A DNA stretch of 39,416 bases from a virus. Taxonomy: Duplodnaviria; Caudoviricetes. The DNA lies in the IMG/VR virus record IMGVR_UViG_3300032280_000315, positions 1 through 39,416 of that record. One strand, given 5' to 3'. Shown here piece after piece: positions 4,286-29,870 of this stretch. The notes under the pieces were generated by a model. The model was not told the DNA's origin, made no database searches, and saw only the letters and a list, made by a program, of their open reading frames with translations. The position numbers and the translations under genes are program-made. Each line of letters starts with the position of its first letter. Position 1 is the stretch's first letter.

Positions 4286-5131
4286 GTGACAACACTCATC
4301 ACTAGTCTCAAGCAGTTCAGTGAAGTACTCATACAGACCGGCGAGATAGACCCCAGCTATTACATGCTGTATTCCGCCCGACGCTATTCATCTCACGGAG
4401 AGGATTGGGTCAAACGCTTCTGCGTTGCTTACTTGCTGTTCTACCACACCGGGACCGCCGCCAAAGCAGCCGACCACGAGGGCGCAGACTTTTGGCGTTG
4501 TTTGAAGGACGCTTGGGAAAATACTCGGTCGAGGGGGCCGGAACGTCGCCACTTCCGAGGGGACAAATCGTGGGACGCTCTCAAATTTTGCTCCCAGTAC
4601 CACCCCAATAAGCCCGAAGACATGTTTGATGCGCCCCGATTCGCTATCAACTACAAACGGTTCCACGCCGCAGCCGCGAAGTACCCTCAGTTTGGGGACT
4701 ACTTCATTTGGAAATGGAACGACTTCAGCACTTGCGTGTTCGACGACGTTCGCAATATGAATGACTGCGAGTCCTACTTGCCTGACGTCCCCAAGAAAGC
4801 TCTCCAGCGCGTATGGTCGGATCGGCATTGGCAAAATTCGTTTGAGTACCTGATCAACTTGATCAGCGACATTCCTGAGCCGTTTTGCATAATCCCCCGT
4901 CGTCCATGCGGACCTCAAGAAGCGGAGACCATTGCTTGCTCGCTCAAAGGCTACGTTCTGGAGCACCCCCCGACGTACATCGGTTACGATATTCACGAGA
5001 AGCACGCACAGCTTGAGAAACTGATGGGGGAGGACAGCTGGCTTAGCAAGCTCCTGCCGGGTCGCGTTGCCCCCTCCGAATACAAGGTTGACAAAGATGC
5101 CATCCTGGACTCCGCACGGTTACCAGCTTAA
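4286..5131 (+). CDS. Amino acid:DNA transferase (aG/PT-PPlase clade 2, HhH-glycosylase fold)
   Basis: GTG start with AGGAG RBS. Motifs IDPSY, RFCVAYLLFYH, RGPERRHFRG, FGDYFIWK, QEAETIAC and YIGYDIHE match the clade-2 proteins of thymidine-hypermodifying phages. Confidence 0.85.
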   Translation: MTTLITSLKQFSEVLIQTGEIDPSYYMLYSARRYSSHGEDWVKRFCVAYLLFYHTGTAAKAADHEGADFWRCLKDAWENTRSRGPERRHFRGDKSWDALKFCSQYHPNKPEDMFDAPRFAINYKRFHAAAAKYPQFGDYFIWKWNDFSTCVFDDVRNMNDCESYLPDVPKKALQRVWSDRHWQNSFEYLINLISDIPEPFCIIPRRPCGPQEAETIACSLKGYVLEHPPTYIGYDIHEKHAQLEKLMGEDSWLSKLLPGRVAPSEYKVDKDAILDSARLPA

Positions 5132-6485
5132 AGCGGTCGAATGGCTGGTAGCCAAGGCTACGTCTGGGCTGCTGCTGAACCCGGGCATGGGCAAGACCAG
5201 CAGTACCCTCGCCGCCATCAGCATTCTGAAGGGAGTGGGGTACATTAGCAAGACTCTGGTAGTGGCCCCCCTTCGCGTCGCCAAACTTGTGTGGCCCGTC
5301 GAGGCGCGCAAATGGAATGACTTCAATAACCTCAAGGTAGTCCACCTGTGCGAAATGGACAACGAGAAGCGGTCGCGGCTGCTCAAGGGCGATTACGACA
5401 TCTATGTGATCAACCCAGAGTCGCTCAAATACGTTCTGGAGCGTATGCCCGACGACATGGACTGTCTCGTCATTGACGAGTCGACCAAGTTTAAGGACTA
5501 CAGCACTCAGCGGTTCAAGGCTCTCAAGAAATTCCTGCCTCGGTTCAAGCGTCGCTTCATCCTGACGGGGACTCCTGCCCCCAATGGTCTCGAAGATCTG
5601 TTCGGTCAAGTGTACATCCTCGACTTGGGTAAGCGACTGGGTAGGTACATTACTCATTTTCGTCAGGAGTTTATGGTTCCCGACGCCTGGCAGGACTACA
5701 CCTATCATCCGGCGGTCGGCGCGGAGAAACTCATTTATGAGCGGCTTGCGGATCTGCTGCTACGGATGGACCCGAAGGACCATCTTGAGATGCCGGAGTT
5801 GATCAATCGGTTCACGACCGTCGCGCTGCCGCCGTCGGCCCGCAAAGTGTACAAAGATATGGCGGACAATCTGTTCACCATTATCAAGGAGGACCCCGTG
5901 TTTGGGGTCAACGCTGCCGTCGCTGGGGCCAAATGTCGCCAAATTGGCAACGGATTCTTGTATGTACAGAACGAGGACGATTCACGGCGGGTTGAAGTAC
6001 TCCACGATGAGAAAGTTGAGGCTCTGCTCGAGCTTGTCGAAGAAATGCAGGATCGGCCTCTGCTTGTCCTGTATGAGTTTATTGCTGACCGGGACCGATT
6101 GCTCGCGGTTATCCCCGGCGCGGTGGACATTACAACAACGAGGGATCTTGAGGGTACGGTCGATGCCTTTAACAAGGGGACTCTGCGCGTCTTGCTTGCG
6201 CATCCGAAGTCTGCTGGCCACGGGCTCAATTTGCAGGGAGTCTGCGACACGGTCGCGTGGTTTGGCGTTACCTGGGACCTTGAGCTTTATGAACAGGCCA
6301 TTGCTCGGATTTGGCGTCAAGGCAATCCGAACCCGGCGGTGATCGTACACCACCTGATGGCCGATACTGAAATTGACCGACGAGTACAGAAAGTGCTGGA
6401 GTCGAAGGCCAAGACTCAGAACAACTTTCTCGACGCGCTGCGCGACTTGGCTAAACACCCCGCTACAGCCTCGGCCGAGGTATAA
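5097..6485 (+). CDS. SNF2-family (SF2) helicase
   Basis: PHGYQ, PGMGKT, VIDEST, LTGTP, SAGHGLNLQ and QAIARIWRQG. I preferred ATG 5097 over TTG 5067 as the start. Confidence 0.93.
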   Translation: MPSWTPHGYQLKAVEWLVAKATSGLLLNPGMGKTSSTLAAISILKGVGYISKTLVVAPLRVAKLVWPVEARKWNDFNNLKVVHLCEMDNEKRSRLLKGDYDIYVINPESLKYVLERMPDDMDCLVIDESTKFKDYSTQRFKALKKFLPRFKRRFILTGTPAPNGLEDLFGQVYILDLGKRLGRYITHFRQEFMVPDAWQDYTYHPAVGAEKLIYERLADLLLRMDPKDHLEMPELINRFTTVALPPSARKVYKDMADNLFTIIKEDPVFGVNAAVAGAKCRQIGNGFLYVQNEDDSRRVEVLHDEKVEALLELVEEMQDRPLLVLYEFIADRDRLLAVIPGAVDITTTRDLEGTVDAFNKGTLRVLLAHPKSAGHGLNLQGVCDTVAWFGVTWDLELYEQAIARIWRQGNPNPAVIVHHLMADTEIDRRVQKVLESKAKTQNNFLDALRDLAKHPATASAEV

Positions 6486-6494
6486 TAGGAACAG
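6481..6494 (+). promoter_or_regulatory. Putative -10/start region for the modification operon
   Basis: TATAATAGGAACAG is nearly identical to TATAATGGGAACAG of the promoter at 34823 (- strand). No clear -35. Confidence 0.5.
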
Positions 6495-6496
6495 CT

Positions 6497-7060
6497 ATGG
6501 ACCTACTCGACCAACGCCTGTACGCCAAGATGAACATCTTCTTCATTGATAGAGATCCCAAACAAGCCGCTATGTGGCTTAAAGACGCCCACATACTTAA
6601 GATGGGCATCGAGTCGGCTCAGCTGCTGTCGACCGCCTGGCACATTCTCAATCCTGGCGACCTACGCTGGTATGAGGGCGTCCCGTTCCTTGAAGATAAG
6701 CCCATTTACAAAAAGACCCACGAAAACCATCCTATGGCGATCTGGGTACGTCAGTCAGTTGGGAACTACAGCTGGTGCTGGCGCCACGGTAAGGCCATTA
6801 TGGCCGAGTACCAGCACCGCTGGGGCGACAAGTCTAAGATCATTCACGCAACCACCTGGATACTTAACACGCTTCAGGAGCTACCCGACAACCTGCCGGA
6901 CGGCGACTTCACTGAACCGCCTCAGTGCATGCCCGAGCAGTACCACGACGCGGACTTTGTGACGGCATATCGCCGCTACTACACCCACGAGAAGATCAAA
7001 CCCAACATTAGCGGTATCGACAAATACACGGACCGGGAGAAGCCAGAATGGAACATCTAA
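6497..7060 (+). CDS. Pyrimidine-dimer DNA glycosylase / endonuclease V-like protein
   Basis: MNIF...D.H.LKM..ESAQLLSTA, YKKTHENHP..IWVR and PPQCMP...AYRRYY motifs. The true start may be ATG 6530 (MNIFF). Confidence 0.8.
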   Translation: MDLLDQRLYAKMNIFFIDRDPKQAAMWLKDAHILKMGIESAQLLSTAWHILNPGDLRWYEGVPFLEDKPIYKKTHENHPMAIWVRQSVGNYSWCWRHGKAIMAEYQHRWGDKSKIIHATTWILNTLQELPDNLPDGDFTEPPQCMPEQYHDADFVTAYRRYYTHEKIKPNISGIDKYTDREKPEWNI

Positions 7061-7638
7061 TTATCAAGCTTCACGGATGCTCGGGCGCGGGCAAAACTAC
7101 CGCAGCGCGGGAGCTCATGGCGTCCTACGGCATCGTCTATCCTATGGACAATTTTGAGCACGCCGGTCGCCGGTACAAGTACGCACATGCGCGACGGCTG
7201 GACGGTAAGCCCGATCTGTACCTCATTGGAGACTACAGCCGACCCGGCTGCGGGGGGACCGACACGATCCCCACGTATACTGTAACAATGGAAATGGTAG
7301 ACTACTTCGTCAAGTACGGTCATGTGTTGTACGAGGGTCTGCTGCTGAGTACCTACTACGGGGCACCCGGCAAGCTGACCGAGCGGTACGGGGACAGCCA
7401 CCTGTTCGCGTTTCTCGACACCCCCGCCGACCTGTGCGTAGAGCGCGTGCGCTCGCGGCGTGAGGCCGCGGGCAGTAAGAACAAGTTTGACCCGCAGCTG
7501 ACCCGCGACAAACACGCTACCATCGAGCGGCTGAAGACCCGAGTCCGAGCAATGGGTCGTAGGGTCGTTGAGCTCGATCACGCCAAGCAACCTGCTCTCC
7601 AGCTGAAGGGACTTTATGACGCACATGTTCCTTCCTGA
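7048..7638 (+). CDS. P-loop kinase, putative 5-hydroxymethyl-dU DNA kinase
   Basis: Walker A GCSGAGKTT, IGDY...CGGTD, VLYEGLLLS and LDTP..CVERV..RR. It sits next to the clade-1 aG/PT-PPlase gene. Confidence 0.82.
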   Translation: MEHLIIKLHGCSGAGKTTAARELMASYGIVYPMDNFEHAGRRYKYAHARRLDGKPDLYLIGDYSRPGCGGTDTIPTYTVTMEMVDYFVKYGHVLYEGLLLSTYYGAPGKLTERYGDSHLFAFLDTPADLCVERVRSRREAAGSKNKFDPQLTRDKHATIERLKTRVRAMGRRVVELDHAKQPALQLKGLYDAHVPS

Positions 7639-8443
7639 GCGGCTGTCAGAGGTCCAGTACTGGATTGAGGAACGCGAGCGGGTCCGAGTCAAACATGACA
7701 GCAATGCCCCCGGCAAATGGTCAGACGACCCCGCCTTCCAGACCATACGATTTTGTAACGTCTACCGGGAGCACGATCGGGTTACTCGTTGGATCGACAT
7801 TAACTGGAGGGAGCCGTTTTTGGAGCACCATATGCTCCCCCTCGCAATGATAATTGCTCGACTTGTAAACTGGCCCGATACGTTGCTCCAATTGGGGTTT
7901 CCGATCAACGGTTGGGACCCTGATTGGTTCAAGAAGGTTCTGGCTCTTCGCAAATCATCAGGGGAGAAGGTCTGGACCAACGCTTACATGGTAACGGGCG
8001 GCTACAGCGAGGGCGGAGAGTCCAAGGAAGTCATCATAGCTCGGGTGATCGACGGAGCCAATTACGCCCTCAACAATTTTCCCCATCCTGAGACCCTCAA
8101 AGGTTGGTTCCAGATGCTGTCGACGCCGGGGCTGGGCCCATTCCTCCGGGGGCAGATCATAGCAGATCTGAAGTACACCCCTGTTCTGCGGGAAGCCCCC
8201 GACTGGTGGACTTGGTGCGCCCCCGGACCGGGGTCGCAGCAAGGGCTGAACTTCTTGATGGGCAAGCCTCAAGCCAAGACCTGGCGCAACGACGACTTTA
8301 TGGAGGCTATCAACAAACTGAGAGAACATCTGCCGGTCGAGATCCACGCTCAAGACGTGCAGAACGTCCTGTGTGAGTACAGCAAATGGTTCAAGTTTAC
8401 TCACCTGGGTACCCCGCCCAAGAACAAATACGTGAGAGTCTAA
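7616..8443 (+). CDS. aG/PT-PPlase clade 1 protein (HhH-glycosylase-like helical fold, thymidine hypermodification)
   Basis: WIEERE...WSDDP...RFCNVYREHDRVT.WI, NAYMV, GLGPFL..QIIADLKY, GPGS..GL and QDVQNVLCEYSK. Confidence 0.88.
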   Translation: MTHMFLPERLSEVQYWIEERERVRVKHDSNAPGKWSDDPAFQTIRFCNVYREHDRVTRWIDINWREPFLEHHMLPLAMIIARLVNWPDTLLQLGFPINGWDPDWFKKVLALRKSSGEKVWTNAYMVTGGYSEGGESKEVIIARVIDGANYALNNFPHPETLKGWFQMLSTPGLGPFLRGQIIADLKYTPVLREAPDWWTWCAPGPGSQQGLNFLMGKPQAKTWRNDDFMEAINKLREHLPVEIHAQDVQNVLCEYSKWFKFTHLGTPPKNKYVRV

Positions 8444-8670
8444 TGTCTTTTATTCATTACATTGTGCACCCCGAGGGGCAAATGGATAAAGTTGAAGGGT
8501 ACATATCAGAGATAGAGGCGCGCAATCGCGCCAAAGAATGGGCGGTTAAATTGACCGGAGTCGAGATCATTATTATGTCGACCCTTGCGATCTACCGCAA
8601 CGTGCCGAAGGTCGAGGAGCAAAAGCTGGAACACATGCCGGAGTCGGTTGCCCCTCTTTACCAGCGTTGA
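8443..8670 (+). CDS. Hypothetical protein (75 aa)
   Basis: ATG overlaps the upstream stop (TAATG). Sequence begins MSFIHYIVHPEG. Confidence 0.65.
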   Translation: MSFIHYIVHPEGQMDKVEGYISEIEARNRAKEWAVKLTGVEIIIMSTLAIYRNVPKVEEQKLEHMPESVAPLYQR

Positions 8671-8805
8671 CCAGCAGTTTTGGGTCATGCGGGTAAAGAG
8701 AGGCAGGCCCGTAGAGCCGCCGCCGGAGGGGTCTGTCCCTTCTACTGTCCCCCCTCCCGGCGACGCCCGCTAGCAGGCAGATTTTTGGCCGTATAGGGAT
8801 CAACT

Positions 8806-9567
8806 ATGACCGAACGACGAACGGAAACGGCGCTGGTAAATGGGTACAATATCACCCTTCCCGTAGGTGTAACCGAGACAATGAAAACCAAAGTGAAAGA
8901 CTCGTACCAGAGCTTCACGCGCGACGGACTGTACCACGTGATGAGGCATATCTATGCCTACACGACAATGATGCCCCCGCTACTTAAGGAGCAACGTCCG
9001 ACTCACATTTTGCACCCCTTTGGGGGCCTGGGCGGAATGGCCCAACTGATCGAACAGGTCTGCGACTGGGATGTGTACCAAGAGTTTTGGGAGCGCGATC
9101 CTGATTGCGTAGCTTGGCTCAGAGAGCATTGGCACGACGTAGTTCTCGCTCAGGACAGCATTAAATGGTTACTGAGAGAAGAGCAGTGGCTTGACCAATG
9201 GGACTGGATCATCTTCGATCTGTCCGTCAGCACGATCAAGACGCCGGGGGTCAAAGAATGCTGGGAGCGGTTCGGCCACTACTTCCGCAAGGGTACACTC
9301 AAAGCTGTTTGGTTGACGGATACAGCGTGTCACAAAATCCACCTGAACGGCCGCACCTACGCCAAGGACTTTGGGTACGATACCCCCACATCTGAGGAAT
9401 ACCTGCGCGCCTACGACGAAGTGATCCTCAGACCCAAAGGTATGTGCATCAACCGAGCTATGCGAGAGGCGGGATCATACTACGCGATGATCACCGCCGC
9501 CAAGCCTGAGCGATTCGGGGAGATTACTTACATGGGTTCTCTGGATTCGCTCAACCTTAGCAAGTAG
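8806..9567 (+). CDS. Putative class I SAM-dependent transferase (Rossmann fold)
   Basis: Motif I ILHPFGGLG, acidic motif II WERDPDC, motif III QDSIKWL and motif IV WDWIIFDLS. No (D/N)PP(Y/F) or PC motif. Confidence 0.65.
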   Translation: MTERRTETALVNGYNITLPVGVTETMKTKVKDSYQSFTRDGLYHVMRHIYAYTTMMPPLLKEQRPTHILHPFGGLGGMAQLIEQVCDWDVYQEFWERDPDCVAWLREHWHDVVLAQDSIKWLLREEQWLDQWDWIIFDLSVSTIKTPGVKECWERFGHYFRKGTLKAVWLTDTACHKIHLNGRTYAKDFGYDTPTSEEYLRAYDEVILRPKGMCINRAMREAGSYYAMITAAKPERFGEITYMGSLDSLNLSK

Positions 9568-9593
9568 ACGGAGAAGTTGATCGAAGCTAGACT
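9565..9593 (+). promoter_or_regulatory. Putative promoter for the nucleotide-metabolism operon
   Basis: TAGACG-17-TAGACT, followed by a GTCGGC...GCCGAC hairpin and a GGAG RBS. Confidence 0.6.
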
Positions 9594-9641
9594 AGAAGGG
9601 TCGGCGGCTATGGGGGTCGCCGACACTATACGGAGAACAAC

Positions 9642-9911
9642 ATGGCCCATTTGAAAGTCGTCAAGTCCGCTACCGAAGCAGTCAACAATATCGCCCGTTG
9701 CCGCCCGCGACCCTACACAACTTACTACTTCAAGCGAGGCCAGCTCAGCCCAATCCGCATTGCTCGGTCTACCAGCCCGACCGCCGCCCTTTGCGCGGTC
9801 GTTCGTCGCATCGGAGAGGGGGAGCCCATCTACGTCGCAGAGATCATCAATTCCACCGGTAAGCTGCTTAAGACCGTCCGCGTCCATTACAGAAAAATCG
9901 AGATCAAATGA
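9642..9911 (+). CDS. Hypothetical basic protein
   Basis: 89 aa with a GGAG RBS and an ATGA overlap with the next gene. Confidence 0.75.
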   Translation: MAHLKVVKSATEAVNNIARCRPRPYTTYYFKRGQLSPIRIARSTSPTAALCAVVRRIGEGEPIYVAEIINSTGKLLKTVRVHYRKIEIK

Positions 9912-10897
9912 AGACACTGACCTGTCGTAACGTCAACGACGGGTTCGTGGAAGCCCTGTGGTACATGCGTATCCAGGGCGTCCGCGAAAACACCCGTAAC
10001 GGTCCCGTCAGATCAGCTGAGGGGCCGGTTATTGTTGAGTTCCAAAAGCCATGGGAACGTACCCATTTCTGCGCCGTCCGCGACGCCAACCCGTTCTTCC
10101 ACGTTATGGAAGCAATGTGGATGCTCGCAGGGCGGAACGACGTCAAATGGCCCGCTTCGTTCGCCTCCAACATTGCCAACTACTCGGACAATGGTCTAAC
10201 CCTTCACGGCGCCTACGGGTACAGGTGGCTGAACCATTTCGGTCCCGATCAGATCCAAGAAGTTATCGACCACCTTAAAGCTGACCCCCAGACCCGTAGG
10301 GCCGTCATCAGCATGTGGGACCCGGTCAGCGACCTCAAAATGGTGGAAACTGGGGGCAAAGACGTCCCGTGCAACACGCACATCTATTTCCGACCGCGGG
10401 GCGCATTTCTCGACATGACGGTGTGCAACCGTTCCAACGACCTTGTGTGGGGGCTGTTCGGGGCCAACGTCGTACACATGTCGTTCCTTCACGAGTTCAT
10501 CGCGGCGGCGACCGGCTTCCAAATGGGCAGCTACTACCAGATGACCAACAATTTGCACGTGTACGAGCAGCATTGGCCCCTTCTGGAACATCCACCTATT
10601 GCCCTTCAAGGGGCCGATCAAGGTACGCGAGTACCGCTCACAGACGACGGGTACTACGCAGGTTTGTACCGGGATCTAGTATGGTTCCTGAATGACCCCG
10701 AGGGCGAGTACAGATACCATAATTCGTGGTTCGTCTCGGTTCTCAAACCGATGTACCTGGCTCACAAACTCTACAAACAAGACAAGCTGGGCGAAGCGAT
10801 TGACCAGTCGGCGCTGATTGCCGACTCAGATTGGAGCGCAGCTTGCTGCCTCTGGCTCAGCCGTCGTGCGAAAAAGAAGGAGCAACTTGATGCGTGA
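9908..10897 (+). CDS. Thymidylate synthase homolog, putative dUMP hydroxymethyltransferase
   Basis: TRNG, RDANPFFH..EAMWMLAGRND, HGAYGYRW, TRRAVISMWD, catalytic PC (DVPCN), RSND and NLHVY. Asn occupies the uracil-specificity position (GANVV). Confidence 0.9.
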   Translation: MKTLTCRNVNDGFVEALWYMRIQGVRENTRNGPVRSAEGPVIVEFQKPWERTHFCAVRDANPFFHVMEAMWMLAGRNDVKWPASFASNIANYSDNGLTLHGAYGYRWLNHFGPDQIQEVIDHLKADPQTRRAVISMWDPVSDLKMVETGGKDVPCNTHIYFRPRGAFLDMTVCNRSNDLVWGLFGANVVHMSFLHEFIAAATGFQMGSYYQMTNNLHVYEQHWPLLEHPPIALQGADQGTRVPLTDDGYYAGLYRDLVWFLNDPEGEYRYHNSWFVSVLKPMYLAHKLYKQDKLGEAIDQSALIADSDWSAACCLWLSRRAKKKEQLDA

Positions 10898-11375
10898 TTT
10901 CGGAGCACTGTACCGGGCGGGGGCAGTGGAGCGGTTCCATACGATGCCGACCCACCAGCGGCAGACGATCGCAGACCACTCGTGGGGGGTTATCATGATT
11001 GTGCTGGCAATCTCCAACAACCCCAACGTCAATCTGATCAAAGCTGCGGCGACCCACGATCTGGCGGAGTCCGTCACAGGCGACCTCCCGGCCACCGTCA
11101 AATGGGACGAGCCTCAGCTTTGTCGTGAGATCGAGGCGCTGGAGCAGAAATTCGCGATCAAACACAACATTTTCCCGTATTTGGATAAGCTTGAGGAAGA
11201 AATTCTGCGCTGGGCCGATATGGCCGAGCTTGTCATGTTCTGCGAGGGGGAGATCCGGCTTGGCAACCAGAACCTGGCTGCGGTATGGCGGCGCGGTATC
11301 CTACGTTTGGAACAGATGGGGTTCCCTACCGATAAAGCTGAAGGATTTTACAATGACCACATTAATCCCGTCTGA
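10890..11375 (+). CDS. HD-domain 5'-deoxynucleotidase (YfbR-like)
   Basis: VERFH...TIADHS...THDLAESVTGDLP...WADMAE. ATG 10890 has an AAGGAG RBS. Confidence 0.88.
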   Translation: MRDFGALYRAGAVERFHTMPTHQRQTIADHSWGVIMIVLAISNNPNVNLIKAAATHDLAESVTGDLPATVKWDEPQLCREIEALEQKFAIKHNIFPYLDKLEEEILRWADMAELVMFCEGEIRLGNQNLAAVWRRGILRLEQMGFPTDKAEGFYNDHINPV

Positions 11376-11637
11376 CGCTAATTCCCGCCAGGTCGGCGGT
11401 TCTCATTACAAGTCCGAGATCCAGCACTGGGACTACGTTGTAGCCAACAATCTGGACTACTTCCAAGGGCAGATCACAAAATACGTGACTCGGTGGAAGG
11501 AGAAGAACGGCATTCAAGATCTGAAGAAGGCCCAGCATTTCCTGGAGAAGTACATCCAGGTGCAAGAGGCCAAGCTAGGCCCGATTCACGCAGCACTTGA
11601 TGGGGAGGCAGACTCCCGATACGTCAACCAAGATTGA
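11353..11637 (+). CDS. DUF3310-family protein (related to T7 gp1.7 nucleotide kinase)
   Basis: QVGGSHY...WD...YFQG..TKYVTRWKEKNGIQDLKKA.HFL. ATG 11353 has an AAGGA RBS. Confidence 0.85.
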   Translation: MTTLIPSDANSRQVGGSHYKSEIQHWDYVVANNLDYFQGQITKYVTRWKEKNGIQDLKKAQHFLEKYIQVQEAKLGPIHAALDGEADSRYVNQD

Positions 11638-17870: not shown

Positions 17871-18806
17871 TTAGCCCATCCGGGAGCCGATTTGCGACCC
17901 GATTTGCGCCCCTTTGAACGCCCCCGCAGGACCTCCAGCCAAGAACCCGCCCCCGGCCCCAAGAAGAGTGGTTCCTGCTCTAATCAGTCCGCCGCGACGA
18001 TTGCTACGAGCCGCTTGTTGAGCGTTGTACCGCTGGATGGCCGCCGCGTCTTGATCTTGACCAGCTTGGTAAACTTGCGCAGCGTCGAACTGCGTACCCG
18101 TGTTGAAATTCTCAAACTGGGGCTGCATACCTTGCTCAGTAGCTTGAAACTGAGCGTATTCTTGCATCGGCAGCGAGCGGCGGCGCAGGGCTTCGCTCAA
18201 CTGCTGAGCGCGAGTCTGATTTTGCTGAGTAGCCAACCCGGACTGACGATCCACGAGGTTCCCCGACACGTCAACCGCCGACAGCAGCGCTTTGCGTTCT
18301 GCGTCGTTCTCGCGGATGCTAATGTCCTCGTTGGTGCGCTGAGACAACCGAGTGTTGCCAACGTTGCCCATTGCCGACAGACGAGTTTGGTCCCGCTCAC
18401 GAGCGCGGTCGAGTCCCGGCTGGAGCGCCCCCATCATAGCGTCTTGGACTTCCTTCACGTATCCAAACTCGCCCTTGGAGGGGTCAACCGTGGCGTAGTC
18501 TACCATGTTAGGGTTGAACTCAGACATTGCGGTTTCAGACGCACGCCCCATCAGCCCGCCTCGGGCCGTCCGAGACTGGTCTAGCAAAGCCTGGTCTTGC
18601 GCGTTCAAACTTGTGGTCTGAGTCCACTGGCCATTCGGCCCCTCGTTCCATTGTACAGACCCCCAAGGGTTGACTTGGTTGGGTCGGTTGGTACGAGTCT
18701 GCTGCTGAGCCGCTTGACGGCCCAGATCCGCTTGCTGAGTAGCAAGCGCAGCGTAATCAGGTGCCGGCGCAGGTGCCGGCGGCGGCGCTGCTGGCTTTTT
18801 GGCCAT
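17871..18806 (-). CDS. DNA transfer / pilot-like virion protein
   Basis: APDY...NRPNQVNPWGS N-terminus, Gln/Ala-rich body and Gly-rich hydrophobic C-terminus. Confidence 0.7.
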   Translation of the reverse strand: MAKKPAAPPPAPAPAPDYAALATQQADLGRQAAQQQTRTNRPNQVNPWGSVQWNEGPNGQWTQTTSLNAQDQALLDQSRTARGGLMGRASETAMSEFNPNMVDYATVDPSKGEFGYVKEVQDAMMGALQPGLDRARERDQTRLSAMGNVGNTRLSQRTNEDISIRENDAERKALLSAVDVSGNLVDRQSGLATQQNQTRAQQLSEALRRRSLPMQEYAQFQATEQGMQPQFENFNTGTQFDAAQVYQAGQDQDAAAIQRYNAQQAARSNRRGGLIRAGTTLLGAGGGFLAGGPAGAFKGAQIGSQIGSRMG

Positions 18807-19239
18807 GTGAGGTTCCTCTTGCCCAACGGGCGCGATTATACGTGGCCCGGCTTAGGCAGTAAAGCTCGCCGGTACGACCAGGTCCATACCAATCTTGAAG
18901 TCTGCCTTCGTTCACGAAACCCAGCCGTTCTAACTGCTTACCCCAAGCTACGTTGCGAGTATCTGTGATAGAAGTGAGGCGAGTACGAGCATTGTCGGCA
19001 AAGCAGAAATCGCCAATTGCTCGCAGAAACCGACGGTTGGCCCAACGCTTAGAGTGATCCGTGACCAAAGTAAGCTCGACATTGTGTTCCCCCCAATCCG
19101 AAAGGGCGCAAATGGCCAAGGCAAAGCCGAGGTCGTCAACGAGCGTGATCAAATATGAGGTACGCGGAGAATGCGACGAATCCAGCTCCTGATTGAGCAG
19201 CCAGAAGAAGGCAGGCAGCTGATCGTGCACAACCTTCAC
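18757..19239 (-). CDS. GNAT-fold protein of the podophage tail module
   Basis: N......ERLGF..EG.L motif, located between the tail tube and pilot genes. Confidence 0.75.
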   Translation of the reverse strand: MKVVHDQLPAFFWLLNQELDSSHSPRTSYLITLVDDLGFALAICALSDWGEHNVELTLVTDHSKRWANRRFLRAIGDFCFADNARTRLTSITDTRNVAWGKQLERLGFVNEGRLQDWYGPGRTGELYCLSRATYNRARWARGTSHGQKASSAAAGTCAGT

Positions 19240-27290: not shown

Positions 27291-27393
27291 TTTTCATGGT
27301 TCCTTTCCGGCGCAGGGCTTGCGCCATTTTGTTCGCCTGCTGGGGACTGACAGGCTTTTTGTTGGGAGCGGGTTTCTGCGGCATTTTTGTCAT
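27280..27393 (-). CDS. Small basic protein (37 aa)
   Basis: ATGA overlap with the stop of the 826-aa gene. Manual translation gives MTKMPQKPAPNKKPVSPQQANKMAQALRRKGTMKNGC. It overlaps the scaffold start. Confidence 0.55.
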   Translation of the reverse strand: MTKMPQKPAPNKKPVSPQQANKMAQALRRKGTMKNGC

Positions 27394-29870
27394 AGCAAAT
27401 TATCTCCATCCGGGGGGATGTCATTTACAAGATCGCCTGGGGCTGCGGCGGGTCCGTCAGGGAGCAAGCGGGGACCCCCTTCATCAATCAGCCCTCGGAT
27501 TCGCATTGCGTTGATGATACGATCCACCAGTCGCTGATTGCCGTTGTTAAGCTGCTCCTCAAGCATAGTGATCAGCCGCTCGGCGTCGGCCATAAGCTCG
27601 TTGTTTGCGAATACTGCGTCCGCTATGCGATGACCCGTGAGGTCTTCAAACTCCCACATCTGCTGGGTCAACGGGCGACCAAAATTGACTGCTTGAGGGG
27701 CGACAGGAGCGGCCTGAACAGGAGCGTCGTACACGTTGCGCTCGCCGCGCAAAGCGCGCATAACTCGATGTGCTGCTTCGCGGTCGTGGCCACCTTCTCT
27801 GATATCAAGTAGTAGCTGGTTCCAATTATCGCCCTGCCGATGAAGCGCTTGTATGATATCCCTTCGATCCAAGGTGCGAACAAACCGGCGCTCGTCAGGA
27901 TCTAAGAAATCCATGTAACGTAGTCCATCAGCTACGTTCATAATTTCATCAGGATTAAACTTGTATTCAGTTTTGGGAACCTTGTCCGCCAAACGATTCA
28001 AGTCTTCATCCGTAATCCATCTACCCTCTTTGTCAACGGTACGCAGATTTTCAAGTTCTTGCGCTACGCCCTCGGGCAAATTGTCGTTGAGGGGATCCAA
28101 GGCATCTGCTACCTTGCTCTTGTCTCTTAAACCGTACGCATAGGCGATCGGGTCTTGCCGGGACATGTTCGCAAAGCGGTCGTTTACGAAGTCAGGCTCG
28201 GGGAGGCCGACCGGCTCGATCAGATTGATGCTGTCCGGGTTGGTCTTACGCAGGAAATCCTGCACTTTGGCCAAATACTTGTCGGGGAAAGAGTTGCCTC
28301 TACCCATTGCCTGGCTAATGTTGCCCATACCTTCAGGATCTGCTCCTTGGGGACGGCGGTATCGGTACAGGTTGCCTTCAGCGTCAATCGTGACGTTGGG
28401 CATGCCCTGCGCGTCTCGCAGAGAAAGAATGCGCTTCTCGCCGCGCTCTATCATCGCACAGTAGTTGCCGACGCAGTGCCCCATAAGATCGCCTTCAGCT
28501 CGCAGCTGATTGTGATTGGGAGGGATCTCCACCCATTTGGAGCCGTCGTCGTACTCCAGCCCTTTGAACGCCGGCAAGTCTTTGGTAGATTGAGCGCTGA
28601 TAGTCTTGGGCTCGTCAATCGCAGACTTAACCAAACGCTGAGCCGCGTCCGGGATGCCCACCTGAATGCGACCTTGGTTGTTAAGAGGGATCTTGCCCGC
28701 GCGCAGTTCCTCGGCAATAAGCTCTACCATGCGGGGGAAGCCCAGATCGTCAATTCTTTCTTTGAACTCCCTTCTCATGTAAGGGTCGCCGTCCACCGGC
28801 AGAGTATGAATGGCGCGCTCGCTGGGAAGCTTCTCCATCCATTCTGGAAGCTCTACCCCTGCGTCTTTGCTGGTCGCAACGTAGTTTCTTGCGGATTCCG
28901 GTCGAACCACCGCGTCGGTGATATTCTCAAACAAGATCCCGCCGGTAAAATCGTGGTTTCCATAAGGGTCGGTTGCGTCACCAATTTTCTCCGGGTTGTC
29001 AAAGGTGTTCTCCAGAATGCCTAGACCCTTCTTTTGAGCGTCGTCCAGCGTTGCGATGTCGCTGGCTTGCTGTCGATTCTCTTTGGATGCTATGTATACC
29101 GCATCAGTTTCATCGCTGGGGTCCGCGCCGCCCCAGCCCCCGCCTTGAGTGTACTTGTCAAATTGATCATACGTCATGTGTCCCCGGTTAGGGTTGTACG
29201 GTACGTTGGGCCGACCAAGCGAAGCTGCCTTGACGGGGTCATCCTTGGTACCCCAATCATTCTTGAGGTACTTGCCCATGGTACCGGTGATCCAGTTGTC
29301 CAGCGCGGCATCCTGCGTCGGGTCGTCCATCTTGGGACGCTTGGACCGCAGATAATCCGTAATGAACTCGATGTGGCCCGGGGCCCAGTTGCCACCCTTG
29401 CCCTTGATGATCTCTGCCACCGGACCGGAGCCGACAACCGCCTGCTGGATCTCACGAGCGCCCTGCTTGATCCCCTGAGGAACCTTGGCTGCGACCTGCT
29501 CCAGCCCCTTGCTGACCGCTCGGCCCGCAGCTTTGTGAGCTATGTTGGCAACGGGGGCCGCATCCATGCCCAGCAGCATCAGATCCGCCACGCCTTTCTT
29601 GCGCCCGGTCTTCATCACCGGGATTTTGGACATTTCCGGCATGCGCATGGGCATATCGCCATACGCGAGGTTCTCAGCCTCTTTGTCGGCGTCCCCGATG
29701 AAAAGCTCGCCCAGCGGGTTGTCCTGCGTAGTCTTGAGCGGCTCGCCGCCTTTGGACATCCAGGCCGTGGTGCCCTTGGGCGTCGGCTCCTTCAGCTTAC
29801 GCAGCGCGTTGGCGATCCGCATTCCCAGCGGATTGGGCTCAAGGTTCTCGATCTTGCCGGTTATTTCCAT
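27390..29870 (-). CDS. Large protein with PcfJ-like domain (putative virion-packaged, polyvalent-type protein)
   Basis: L.AEG..MGHCVG.Y...ILSLRD..G.P.VTI is the PcfJ-like signature. 826 aa, between portal and scaffold. Confidence 0.7.
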   Translation of the reverse strand: MEITGKIENLEPNPLGMRIANALRKLKEPTPKGTTAWMSKGGEPLKTTQDNPLGELFIGDADKEAENLAYGDMPMRMPEMSKIPVMKTGRKKGVADLMLLGMDAAPVANIAHKAAGRAVSKGLEQVAAKVPQGIKQGAREIQQAVVGSGPVAEIIKGKGGNWAPGHIEFITDYLRSKRPKMDDPTQDAALDNWITGTMGKYLKNDWGTKDDPVKAASLGRPNVPYNPNRGHMTYDQFDKYTQGGGWGGADPSDETDAVYIASKENRQQASDIATLDDAQKKGLGILENTFDNPEKIGDATDPYGNHDFTGGILFENITDAVVRPESARNYVATSKDAGVELPEWMEKLPSERAIHTLPVDGDPYMRREFKERIDDLGFPRMVELIAEELRAGKIPLNNQGRIQVGIPDAAQRLVKSAIDEPKTISAQSTKDLPAFKGLEYDDGSKWVEIPPNHNQLRAEGDLMGHCVGNYCAMIERGEKRILSLRDAQGMPNVTIDAEGNLYRYRRPQGADPEGMGNISQAMGRGNSFPDKYLAKVQDFLRKTNPDSINLIEPVGLPEPDFVNDRFANMSRQDPIAYAYGLRDKSKVADALDPLNDNLPEGVAQELENLRTVDKEGRWITDEDLNRLADKVPKTEYKFNPDEIMNVADGLRYMDFLDPDERRFVRTLDRRDIIQALHRQGDNWNQLLLDIREGGHDREAAHRVMRALRGERNVYDAPVQAAPVAPQAVNFGRPLTQQMWEFEDLTGHRIADAVFANNELMADAERLITMLEEQLNNGNQRLVDRIINAMRIRGLIDEGGPRLLPDGPAAAPGDLVNDIPPDGDNLL

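What the first reader, a model, noticed from the sequence alone, without database searches (positions are those of the whole stretch)
4286..11637. Thymidine-hypermodification pathway in a 39-kb podophage, with an atypical enzyme set
Seen: a TS homolog with the uracil-specific Asn, a P-loop kinase, clade-1 and clade-2 aG/PT-PPlase genes, an HD nucleotidase and DUF3310. Known: in phages M6/YuA, ViI, phiW-14 and SP10, 5-hmdU is incorporated into DNA, phosphorylated by a 5-hmdU DNA kinase and substituted by an amino acid:DNA transferase. The adduct is then tailored by PLP decarboxylase, radical-SAM, flavin or acetyltransferase enzymes. Those phages are larger sipho- or myoviruses. Here I recognised none of those tailoring enzymes, and a SAM-binding Rossmann protein is present instead. 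Inference: T is replaced by 5-hmdU plus a hypermodified base of possibly new chemistry, serving as an anti-restriction shield.
Basis: partly seen in the sequence, partly recalled or inferred. Interest (0 to 1): 0.9.

Follow-up and report, generated by a model that had tools for sequence, protein, structure and literature searches.

The report
Phage thymine-decorating pathway with new methyltransferase
A small, complete phage genome carries the gene set that likely attaches a chemical group to thymines in its DNA, plus an unnamed methyltransferase-like protein, found next to such genes in many other phages, that likely methylates this decoration and would give a DNA base not yet described.

Summary
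The cluster is real, in a complete 39.4-kb phage genome. It encodes an M6-type dUMP hydroxymethylase, an HD hydrolase, DUF3310, a 5-hmdU DNA kinase, clade-1 aGPT-PPlase and an amino-acid:DNA transferase (AADT) with an intact catalytic core (TM 0.78 to PaMx11 gp46). No PLP, radical-SAM or flavin enzyme was found. Two points are not unusual: the cultured 36-kb podovirus P26218 has the same core, and phiW-14 needs no tailoring enzyme. Two are: (1) the AADT donor pocket (Ser219/Thr230) matches neither the glycine nor the diamine signature; (2) 8806 belongs to an unnamed class-I SAM-methyltransferase family (180 representatives). That family lies beside an AADT in 70 of 78 loci fetched by the methyltransferase itself, including TET/JBP-AADT-kinase cassettes and the M6-type cluster of cyanophage Pam3. 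Best reading: the AADT adduct is N-methylated, giving an undescribed base; no activity is shown. New variant of a known kind.

The parts
4286..5131 (+). Amino-acid/amine:DNA transferase (AADT, aGPT-Pplase2), 281 aa; catalytic E214/C218 kept; donor-pocket positions S219/T230
7048..7638 (+). P-loop kinase, likely 5-hmdU DNA kinase (M6 gp54/YuA gp13 type)
   Evidence: (PF18748, below cut-off)
7616..8443 (+). Clade-1 aGPT-PPlase (Pfam HMUDK_hel, PF18723); function unproven
8806..9567 (+). Unnamed class-I SAM-dependent methyltransferase-fold protein, 253 aa; candidate tailoring enzyme
9908..10897 (+). Thymidylate-synthase homolog of the dUMP hydroxymethylase group (C155, N187)
10890..11375 (+). HD-domain nucleotide hydrolase (YfbR/DatZ-like), likely removes dTMP or dTTP
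   Evidence: (phrog_7076, 1.9e-15)
11353..11637 (+). DUF3310 protein, likely a nucleotide kinase
5097..6485 (+). SNF2-type helicase inside the cluster (replication gene, not assigned to the pathway)
6530..7060 (+). DenV/pyrimidine-dimer glycosylase-like protein; present in some relatives; role in the pathway unknown
8443..8670 (+). Small unknown ORF (75 aa), start overlapping the PPlase1 stop; not found in the other fetched loci
9642..9911 (+). Small unknown ORF (89 aa) coupled to the TS start; not found in the other fetched loci

Best explanation
The phage likely replicates its DNA with 5-hydroxymethyluracil, likely phosphorylates some of these bases and swaps the phosphate for a small amine or amino acid, and the methyltransferase-fold protein at 8806 then likely N-methylates that adduct, which would give a thymine derivative not yet described. 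Shown here: the genes, their folds, their conserved catalytic residues and their recurring gene context. Inferred from characterised homologs: 9908 makes 5-hmdUMP; the HD protein and DUF3310 reshape the nucleotide pool; 7048 makes 5-phosphomethyl-dU in DNA; 4286 attacks C6 with Cys218 and transfers a donor to the C5 methylene. Inferred from context and fold only: the donor is neither glycine nor a diamine, and 8806 uses SAM on the adduct's nitrogen. The function is probably protection from restriction enzymes. Rough odds: hypermodification pathway 0.85; 8806 acts in it 0.75; that step is N-methylation of the adduct 0.5 overall.
For: AADT core residues defined in solved structures (D24, E96, K159, E243, C247, D262) are kept as D22, E86, K143, E214, C218, D235; TM 0.78 to 8z2n. 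TS ranks with M6/YuA (41%, 1e-75) and a Bacillus-phage dUMP hydroxymethyltransferase (3e-39), far above T4-like td (about 1e-11). The kinase shares Walker A and the EG and FLDTP motifs with M6 gp54. 8806: pLDDT 85; top fold matches are RNA amino-methyltransferases (Trm1 Z 14.2, rmsd 4.2, 220 aligned; TrmM 13.4; RlmKL 13.3; RsmD). In 136 family members G74 and G76 are invariant, position 96 is acidic in all, and D138/D172 are 98-99% conserved. Context: an AADT lies in 70 of 78 loci fetched with methyltransferase queries, and 7 of the 8 misses are cut short. In 63 loci of a distant subfamily, 58 have an AADT, 56 a TET/JBP and 53 a kinase. Pam3, L219 and L223 pair it with a glycine-signature AADT, PLP and radical-SAM genes, whose M6-type product is a free amine. 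Among podophage loci it occurs in 18 of 34 with an AADT and 0 of 15 without.
Against: No activity or base has been measured. The fold search does not single out N-methylation: O- and C-methyltransferases, a spermidine synthase-like protein, TYW2 and AzeJ score within about 2-3 Z. The 18/34 versus 0/15 split is phylogenetically clustered (4 changes on the TS tree), so its Fisher p (2.5e-4) is overstated. Many of the 78 loci are near-copies. L016 has the family between radical-SAM and PLP genes with no AADT within about 10 kb. 16 of 34 AADT-bearing podophage loci lack it, so it is optional. The kinase misses the Pfam cut-off. No dCMP deaminase, Nmad5 or dUTPase-type dTTPase was found. The protein is not basic (pI 6.1). 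Six-base palindromes are still avoided (451 against 638 expected), so any shield is incomplete.
Confidence: 0.5

Rival explanations
1. 8806 is an O-methyltransferase in the same pathway. It esterifies the carboxylate of an amino-acid adduct (as Trm9 does in tRNA, recalled) or caps leftover 5-hmU as a methyl ether.
For: With no PLP decarboxylase here, an amino-acid adduct would keep its negative charge; K143, the equivalent of carboxylate-binding K159, is retained. O-methyltransferases are among the fold matches. PMC13229309 lists O-methyltransferases near T-dioxygenases.
Against: The family also sits with PLP decarboxylases (Pam3, L023, L219, L223), which would remove that carboxylate. It was absent from all 15 podophage loci without an AADT, although those loci would still have 5-hmU to cap.
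Confidence: 0.15
2. 8806 works before or differently from methylation of DNA. It makes the free donor for the AADT (for example a methylated amine), or transfers an aminopropyl or aminocarboxypropyl group from SAM.
For: The unusual donor pocket S219/T230. Spermidine-synthase-like, TYW2 and AzeJ/BelI folds score Z 11-12.6. The protein is acidic.
Against: The family pairs with AADTs of several pocket types, including the glycine signature, which argues against its defining the donor. The best-scoring folds act on nucleic acids.
Confidence: 0.12
3. 8806 is an independent DNA amino-methyltransferase (N6-A, N4-C or N2-G) hitch-hiking in the cluster, and the final thymine base is a one-step AADT adduct as in phiW-14.
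For: The closest folds methylate exocyclic amines of A and G. One-step pathways are known. The gene changes position within clusters.
Against: Motif IV is D-L-S-V rather than DPPY/NPPY. No DNA-methylase Pfam hit was found in 136 members. The coupling to AADT across unrelated phage lineages and both 5-hmU routes is tight.
Confidence: 0.13
4. No hypermodification: the genes give plain 5-hmU DNA or ordinary dTMP, or are decayed.
For: The kinase is below the Pfam cut-off and 4286 has no direct Pfam hit. No dCMP deaminase was found.
Against: All ORFs are open and their catalytic residues are conserved; TM 0.78 to a proven AADT; the order is conserved in dozens of loci.
Confidence: 0.07

Closest known systems
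Thymidine hypermodification of Pseudomonas phages M6/YuA (5-NedU) and PaMx11 (5-AcNmdU) (PMC8989533, PMC11472151)
   Same: dUMP hydroxymethylase, HD, DUF3310, 5-HMUDK, clade-1 PPlase and AADT with the same fold and catalytic Cys/Glu.
   Different: No PLP, radical-SAM, flavin or Nmad5 gene; the AADT lacks the glycine determinants K248/Y257; a SAM-methyltransferase-fold gene is present.
One-step polyamine pathways of Delftia phage phiW-14 (putT) and Acinetobacter phage SH-Ab 15599 (dapT) (PMC8989533, PMC13458397)
   Same: Kinase plus AADT without PLP or radical-SAM tailoring; Tyr at the W146/W155 position.
   Different: The diamine determinants G227/D238 are replaced by S219/T230; no methyltransferase step is described for these much larger phages.
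Rhodoferax podovirus P26218 (NC_029061; PMC4657236)
   Same: 36-kb phage with Pol A, VRR-NUC, helicase, AADT, kinase, TS, HD and DUF3310.
   Different: Lacks clade-1 PPlase and the methyltransferase; different AADT pocket; no modification is mentioned in the passages read.
Clade C1 phage T-dioxygenase (TET/JBP, ParB-linked) clusters (PMC13229309)
   Same: The paper links them to AADTs and P-loop kinases; the 8806 family fills the slot between the dioxygenase and the AADT in most loci.
   Different: This window uses the pre-replicative dUMP hydroxymethylase route; the passages read assign no role to this methyltransferase family.
RNA amino-methyltransferases Trm1, TrmM, RlmKL, RsmD
   Same: Class-I Rossmann fold with motif I glycines and an acidic residue after strand 2.
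   Different: About 10% identity, no DPF/DPPY motif, and a family-specific TD..K.HLN...Y segment; substrate not established.

Membership tests
AADT / aGPT-Pplase2 (PF18724) | Profile match above the curated cut-off | tested here: inconclusive
   No hit for 4286 itself; an 89%-identical homolog has a precomputed PF18724 hit and syntenic ortholog L012 passes the cut-off.
AADT / aGPT-Pplase2 (PF18724) | Fold of gp46/PUGT | tested here: met
   TM 0.78, E 5e-10 to 8z2n; the next unrelated hit has E 0.39.
AADT / aGPT-Pplase2 (PF18724) | Catalytic Cys with proximal Glu, Arg-rich loop, D24/K159/D262 pocket | tested here: met
   E214, C218, R88, H89, D22, K143, D235 (against 99, 108).
Glycine-specific AADT (M6 gp51, YuA, PaMx11 gp46) | K248 and Y257 (and W146/W155) | tested here: not met
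   S219, T230 and Y139 by alignment; register at 230 is uncertain by one residue.
Diamine DNA transferase (phiW-14 gp109, SH-Ab 15599) | G227 and acidic D238 | tested here: not met
   S219 and T230; Ser in 10 of the 10 closest homologs, no Asp at the D238 position.
5-hmdU DNA kinase (PF18748) | P-loop kinase of the M6 gp54 group next to PPlase genes | tested here: inconclusive
   24.6 bits against cut-off 27; 29% identity to YuA gp13, E 6e-14, motifs shared.
5-hmdU DNA kinase (PF18748) | Phosphorylates 5-hmdU in DNA | not testable with these tools
   Needs an LC-MS assay.
dUMP hydroxymethylase | TS fold with catalytic Cys and uracil-selecting Asn; groups with M6/SPO1-type enzymes rather than td | tested here: met
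   C155 and N187; ranking. The Asn alone does not separate it from ordinary TS (own knowledge).
dUMP hydroxymethylase | Product is 5-hmdUMP, not dTMP | not testable with these tools
   Needs an enzyme assay.
Clade-1 aGPT-PPlase (PF18723) | Profile match above cut-off | tested here: met
   119 bits against cut-off 25.
Class-I SAM-dependent methyltransferase | Rossmann fold with motif I GxG and acidic residue after strand 2 | tested here: met
DNA N6-A/N4-C methyltransferases | Motif IV (D/N/S)PP(Y/F) | tested here: not met
   DLSV here; D-F/Y/P-x in the family; motif definition recalled.
DNA C5-cytosine methyltransferases | Catalytic Cys of motif IV | tested here: not met
   No conserved Cys follows D138 in 136 members; those in PMC8256090 all keep it.
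M6/ViI/PaMx11 tailored pathways | PLP decarboxylase, radical-SAM isomerase, or flavin lyase plus acetyltransferase | tested here: not met
   No Pfam, PHROG or tblastn match in the complete genome (the flavin lyase was tested by profile only); only a GNAT in the virion module.

The most novel reading that the evidence does not exclude
The 8806 family is a widespread, uncharacterised fifth class of thymidine-tailoring enzyme, a DNA-adduct N-methyltransferase that plugs into both the dUMP-hydroxymethylase route and the TET/JBP route. In this podophage it follows an AADT that uses a donor other than glycine, serine or a diamine, so the virion DNA carries a base new in both its side chain and its methylation, possibly a permanently cationic, multiply methylated amine.
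Probability: 0.35. Interest if true: 0.8.

Novelty: new variant of a known kind. Interest (0 to 1): 0.62.

Why it matters
The known tailoring steps on hypermodified thymidine are decarboxylation, radical isomerisation, flavin cleavage and acetylation. No methylation step turned up in the searches made here (term look-up). A methyltransferase family recurring in small podophage-type contigs, T4-like contigs and a cultured cyanophage would add an enzyme class and several predicted bases. The S/T donor pocket adds a test case to the two-residue specificity code published in 2026. It is directly testable with four small genes on 5-hmU DNA, and Pam3 and P26218 give cultured with/without comparisons.

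Tried and rejected
Pfam gave nothing for 8806 or 4286 and no family covering the 136 relatives of 8806 (best 8 of 136). tblastn of 8806 against 50,697 phage records found none; Pam3 was reached only through distant member P0040. The 19-sequence profile found no real PDB match. A single-sequence locus search with 4286 found none. The scan of metagenome contigs with subfamily A9 and of prokaryote genomes with A8 found none; each used one pattern, so they do not show absence. The AADT tree did not place 4286 with any characterised enzyme (no supported set). Small genome size and lack of tailoring enzymes were rejected as novelties. The GNAT at 18757-19239 was set aside as a PaMx11-type acetyltransferase because it lies among virion genes on the other strand and no flavin lyase is present; it had no homolog in the fetched loci, most of which do not reach the virion module, so it is not excluded. 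TG enrichment is strong in P26218-type loci (median 1.32) but absent here (1.06), so composition gives no target context. Iyer et al. 2013 could not be read; its neighbourhood lists, Lee 2021 Fig. 2 and Dataset S10 of PMC13229309 were not seen and may already show this methyltransferase.
Full report
Observation. The window is a whole phage genome with direct terminal repeats, rated 100% complete. It has a Pol A, exonuclease, VRR-NUC and helicase arm on the + strand and terminase, portal, capsid, tail and lysis genes on the - strand. The TS homolog has Cys155 and Asn187. It ranks with M6/YuA-type enzymes (41%, about 1e-75) and a Bacillus-phage dUMP hydroxymethyltransferase (3e-39), far above T4-like td (about 1e-11, 60 of 667 records shown in spread order). 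The kinase is a weak PF18748 match (24.6 bits, cut-off 27), as is P26218 gp15 (24.3), but it aligns with M6 gp54 at Walker A, EG and FLDTP. 7616 is a clear PF18723 member; in M6 its counterpart gp55 was not needed for glycine transfer (PMC8989533 section 16). Profile scans of 30, 41 and 37 ORFs found no PLP, radical-SAM or flavin enzyme. tblastn with M6 and ViI PLP enzymes, M6 radical-SAM, Nmad5 and dCMP deaminase, a dTTPase and a TET found no real match. One GNAT lies among virion genes at 18757-19239.

The transferase. 4286 has no direct Pfam hit but matches phiW-14 gp109, YuA gp10 and P26218 gp14. Its AF2 model (pLDDT 93.6) matches PaMx11 gp46 at TM 0.78. The residues that the two solved structures place at the active site (PMC11472151 section 14; PMC13458397 section 36) are kept: D22, E86, R88, H89, K143, E214, C218, D235. 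PMC13458397 showed that two positions switch the donor between glycine (K248/Y257) and diamines (G227/D238). Here they are S219 and T230, with Tyr at the W146 position as in phiW-14. Ser is kept in 10 of the 10 closest homologs and Thr in 9. The register at 230 is uncertain by one residue. The donor is therefore probably none of glycine, putrescine or diaminopropane; this is an inference from alignment. A tree of 18 AADTs did not tie 4286 to any characterised enzyme.

What is not unusual. The cultured podovirus P26218 (36,315 bp; PMC4657236 passages) carries AADT, kinase, TS, HD and DUF3310 next to its helicase. Of 81 fetched loci spanning VRR-NUC to HD/DUF3310, reduced to 49 at 95% TS identity, 34 have an AADT. 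phiW-14 gp109 alone gave putT in trans and SH-Ab 15599 makes dapT in one transfer step, so missing tailoring genes are not strange in themselves.

The methyltransferase. 8806 has 19 close hits including itself and 180 representatives at E <= 0.001 in the 50%-identity library. None is covered by a Pfam family (best 8 of 136). The model (pLDDT 84.7) is a class-I SAM fold. Best matches are Trm1 (E 1.3e-8; Z 14.2, rmsd 4.2, 220 aligned), TrmM and RlmKL (tied within 1 Z), and RsmD in the Atlas; many other methyltransferases follow at Z 11-12.7. In 136 aligned members the motif I glycines are invariant, position 96 is acidic, and D138, D172, Y185 and Y199 are 98-99% conserved. There is no DPPY motif or conserved catalytic Cys.

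Its context. Of 13 loci from the close-family search, 12 are podophage-type clusters like the window; 10 show PPlase1-methyltransferase-TS and two end inside the gene. Other podophage loci carry it at other places in the cluster. A distant member lies in the M6-type cluster of cultured cyanophage Pam3. L023 reads TET/JBP, kinase, AADT, PLP, methyltransferase, radical-SAM. A second subfamily gave 64 loci. After dropping one duplicate of L023, 58 of 63 have an AADT, 56 a TET/JBP, 53 a kinase, 2 a PLP and 1 a TS, mostly as a tight dioxygenase-methyltransferase-AADT-kinase cassette, in T4-like and small-phage contigs. Over all 78 loci fetched by methyltransferase queries, 70 have an AADT, seven misses are truncated, and L016 is a true exception; many rows are near-copies. 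At 50% identity 22 of 23 clusters have an AADT, a count biased by loci fetched with AADT and PPlase1 queries. Among the 49 podophage loci it occurs in 18 of 34 with an AADT and 0 of 15 without. The 18 include the window and four loci first fetched with the methyltransferase, and the label is clustered on the TS tree (4 changes), so this is weaker than its p-value.

Mechanism. Inferred: 9908 makes 5-hmdUMP; the HD protein (YfbR/DatZ-like) and DUF3310 favour 5-hmdUTP over dTTP; Pol A incorporates it; 7048 makes 5-PmdU; 4286 forms the Cys218-C6 adduct and transfers a donor to the C5 methylene (scheme). 8806 then most likely methylates the adduct. Nitrogen is the preferred acceptor for three reasons. 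The family accompanies glycine-signature AADT plus radical-SAM plus PLP sets (Pam3, L219, L223), whose M6-type product is a free amine without a carboxylate. It was not seen without an AADT in podophages. Its nearest folds methylate amines on nucleic acids. O-methylation, donor synthesis or aminoalkyl transfer, and an unrelated DNA methylase remain open. Against a complete shield, six-base palindromes are still under-represented (451 against 638).

Literature seen. PMC8989533: abstract, introduction, sections 15-17, 21, 23 and passages. PMC11472151: abstract, sections 13, 14, 16, 22 and passages. PMC13458397: abstract, sections 33, 36, 38, 43, 45, 48; 'methyltransferase' occurs 0 times. PMC13229309, PMC8256090, PMC13697223 and PMC4657236: passages only. 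PMC5889632: listing and a term look-up with no hits. Iyer 2013: not held. No figures or supplements were read. Searches showed no paper assigning a methyltransferase to thymidine hypermodification; PMC13229309 mentions unspecified O-methyltransferases near T-dioxygenases. The scan's note e1-9787189 states a similar idea for another genome. A sequence look-up with 8806 found no look-alike window, so I could not tell whether it is the same family.

Verdict. This is a new variant of a known kind: an established pathway with an AADT of untyped donor pocket and an uncharacterised methyltransferase family tightly tied to such pathways. Interest 0.62; 0.8 if the novel reading holds.

Noticed in passing
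L160-L218 (for example L210, L170, L204): A four-gene cassette TET/JBP dioxygenase - 8806-family methyltransferase - AADT - P-loop kinase, often with ParB, recurs in T4-like and small aquatic-type phage contigs. Its AADT has a distinct pocket sequence.
   Followed up: partly
L017 (Pseudanabaena phage Pam3, ON014755.1, Pam3_39 to Pam3_54): A cultured cyanophage has an M6-type cluster plus the methyltransferase (Pam3_39, annotated hypothetical). It is the easiest in vivo test.
   Followed up: partly
L001 (P26218 gp14-gp18) and L002, L118, L121, L128, L138, L143: Minimal AADT+kinase module without clade-1 PPlase. All 7 non-redundant loci show TG enrichment (1.27-1.36), like the phiW-14 stretch (1.34), suggesting an undescribed TG-targeted modification in a cultured podovirus.
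   Followed up: partly
L055, L063, L067, L068, L069, L098: Podophage clusters with kinase and clade-1 PPlase but no detectable AADT, hinting that clade-1 PPlase acts on 5-PmdU by itself.
   Followed up: no
L071, L073, L078, L082, L088, L091, L094, L096, L097: Clusters with clade-1 PPlase and TS but neither kinase nor AADT; some hold a TET-associated glycosyltransferase (L088), a radical-SAM/SPASM protein (L097) or a sulfotransferase-like protein (L091).
   Followed up: no
L016:8772-14405: 79-kb phage contig with radical-SAM-like, methyltransferase, PLP, radical-SAM and a GNAT-like (LPG synthase C) gene but no AADT, kinase or TS within about 10 kb: a different modification module.
   Followed up: no
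window 1-39416: TGCA is strongly avoided (64 against 134 expected). Median observed/expected is 0.54 in methyltransferase-bearing clusters against 0.85 in PPlase1-only clusters, and 0.22-0.43 in YuA/M6 stretches; could be restriction avoidance or a cost of opposed TG adducts.
   Followed up: partly
window 6530-7060: DenV-like glycosylase gene sits in the cluster; it directly precedes the methyltransferase in 9 of 18 podophage loci and lies just upstream of the TET cassette in several T4-like contigs.
   Followed up: no
L119:13137-13568 and 15 other loci: A small unknown ORF recurs in 16 AADT+PPlase1 podophage clusters, 14 of them with the methyltransferase; it has no Pfam match and is absent from the window.
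   Followed up: no
window 18757-19239 (-): GNAT acetyltransferase among virion genes.
   Followed up: partly
window 27390-29870 (-): 826-aa protein in the head module with a PcfJ-like domain, between portal and capsid genes; unexplained.
   Followed up: no
L023:4482-6887: The radical-SAM gene of this cluster is 801 aa and carries what looks like an intein (read by eye).
   Followed up: no
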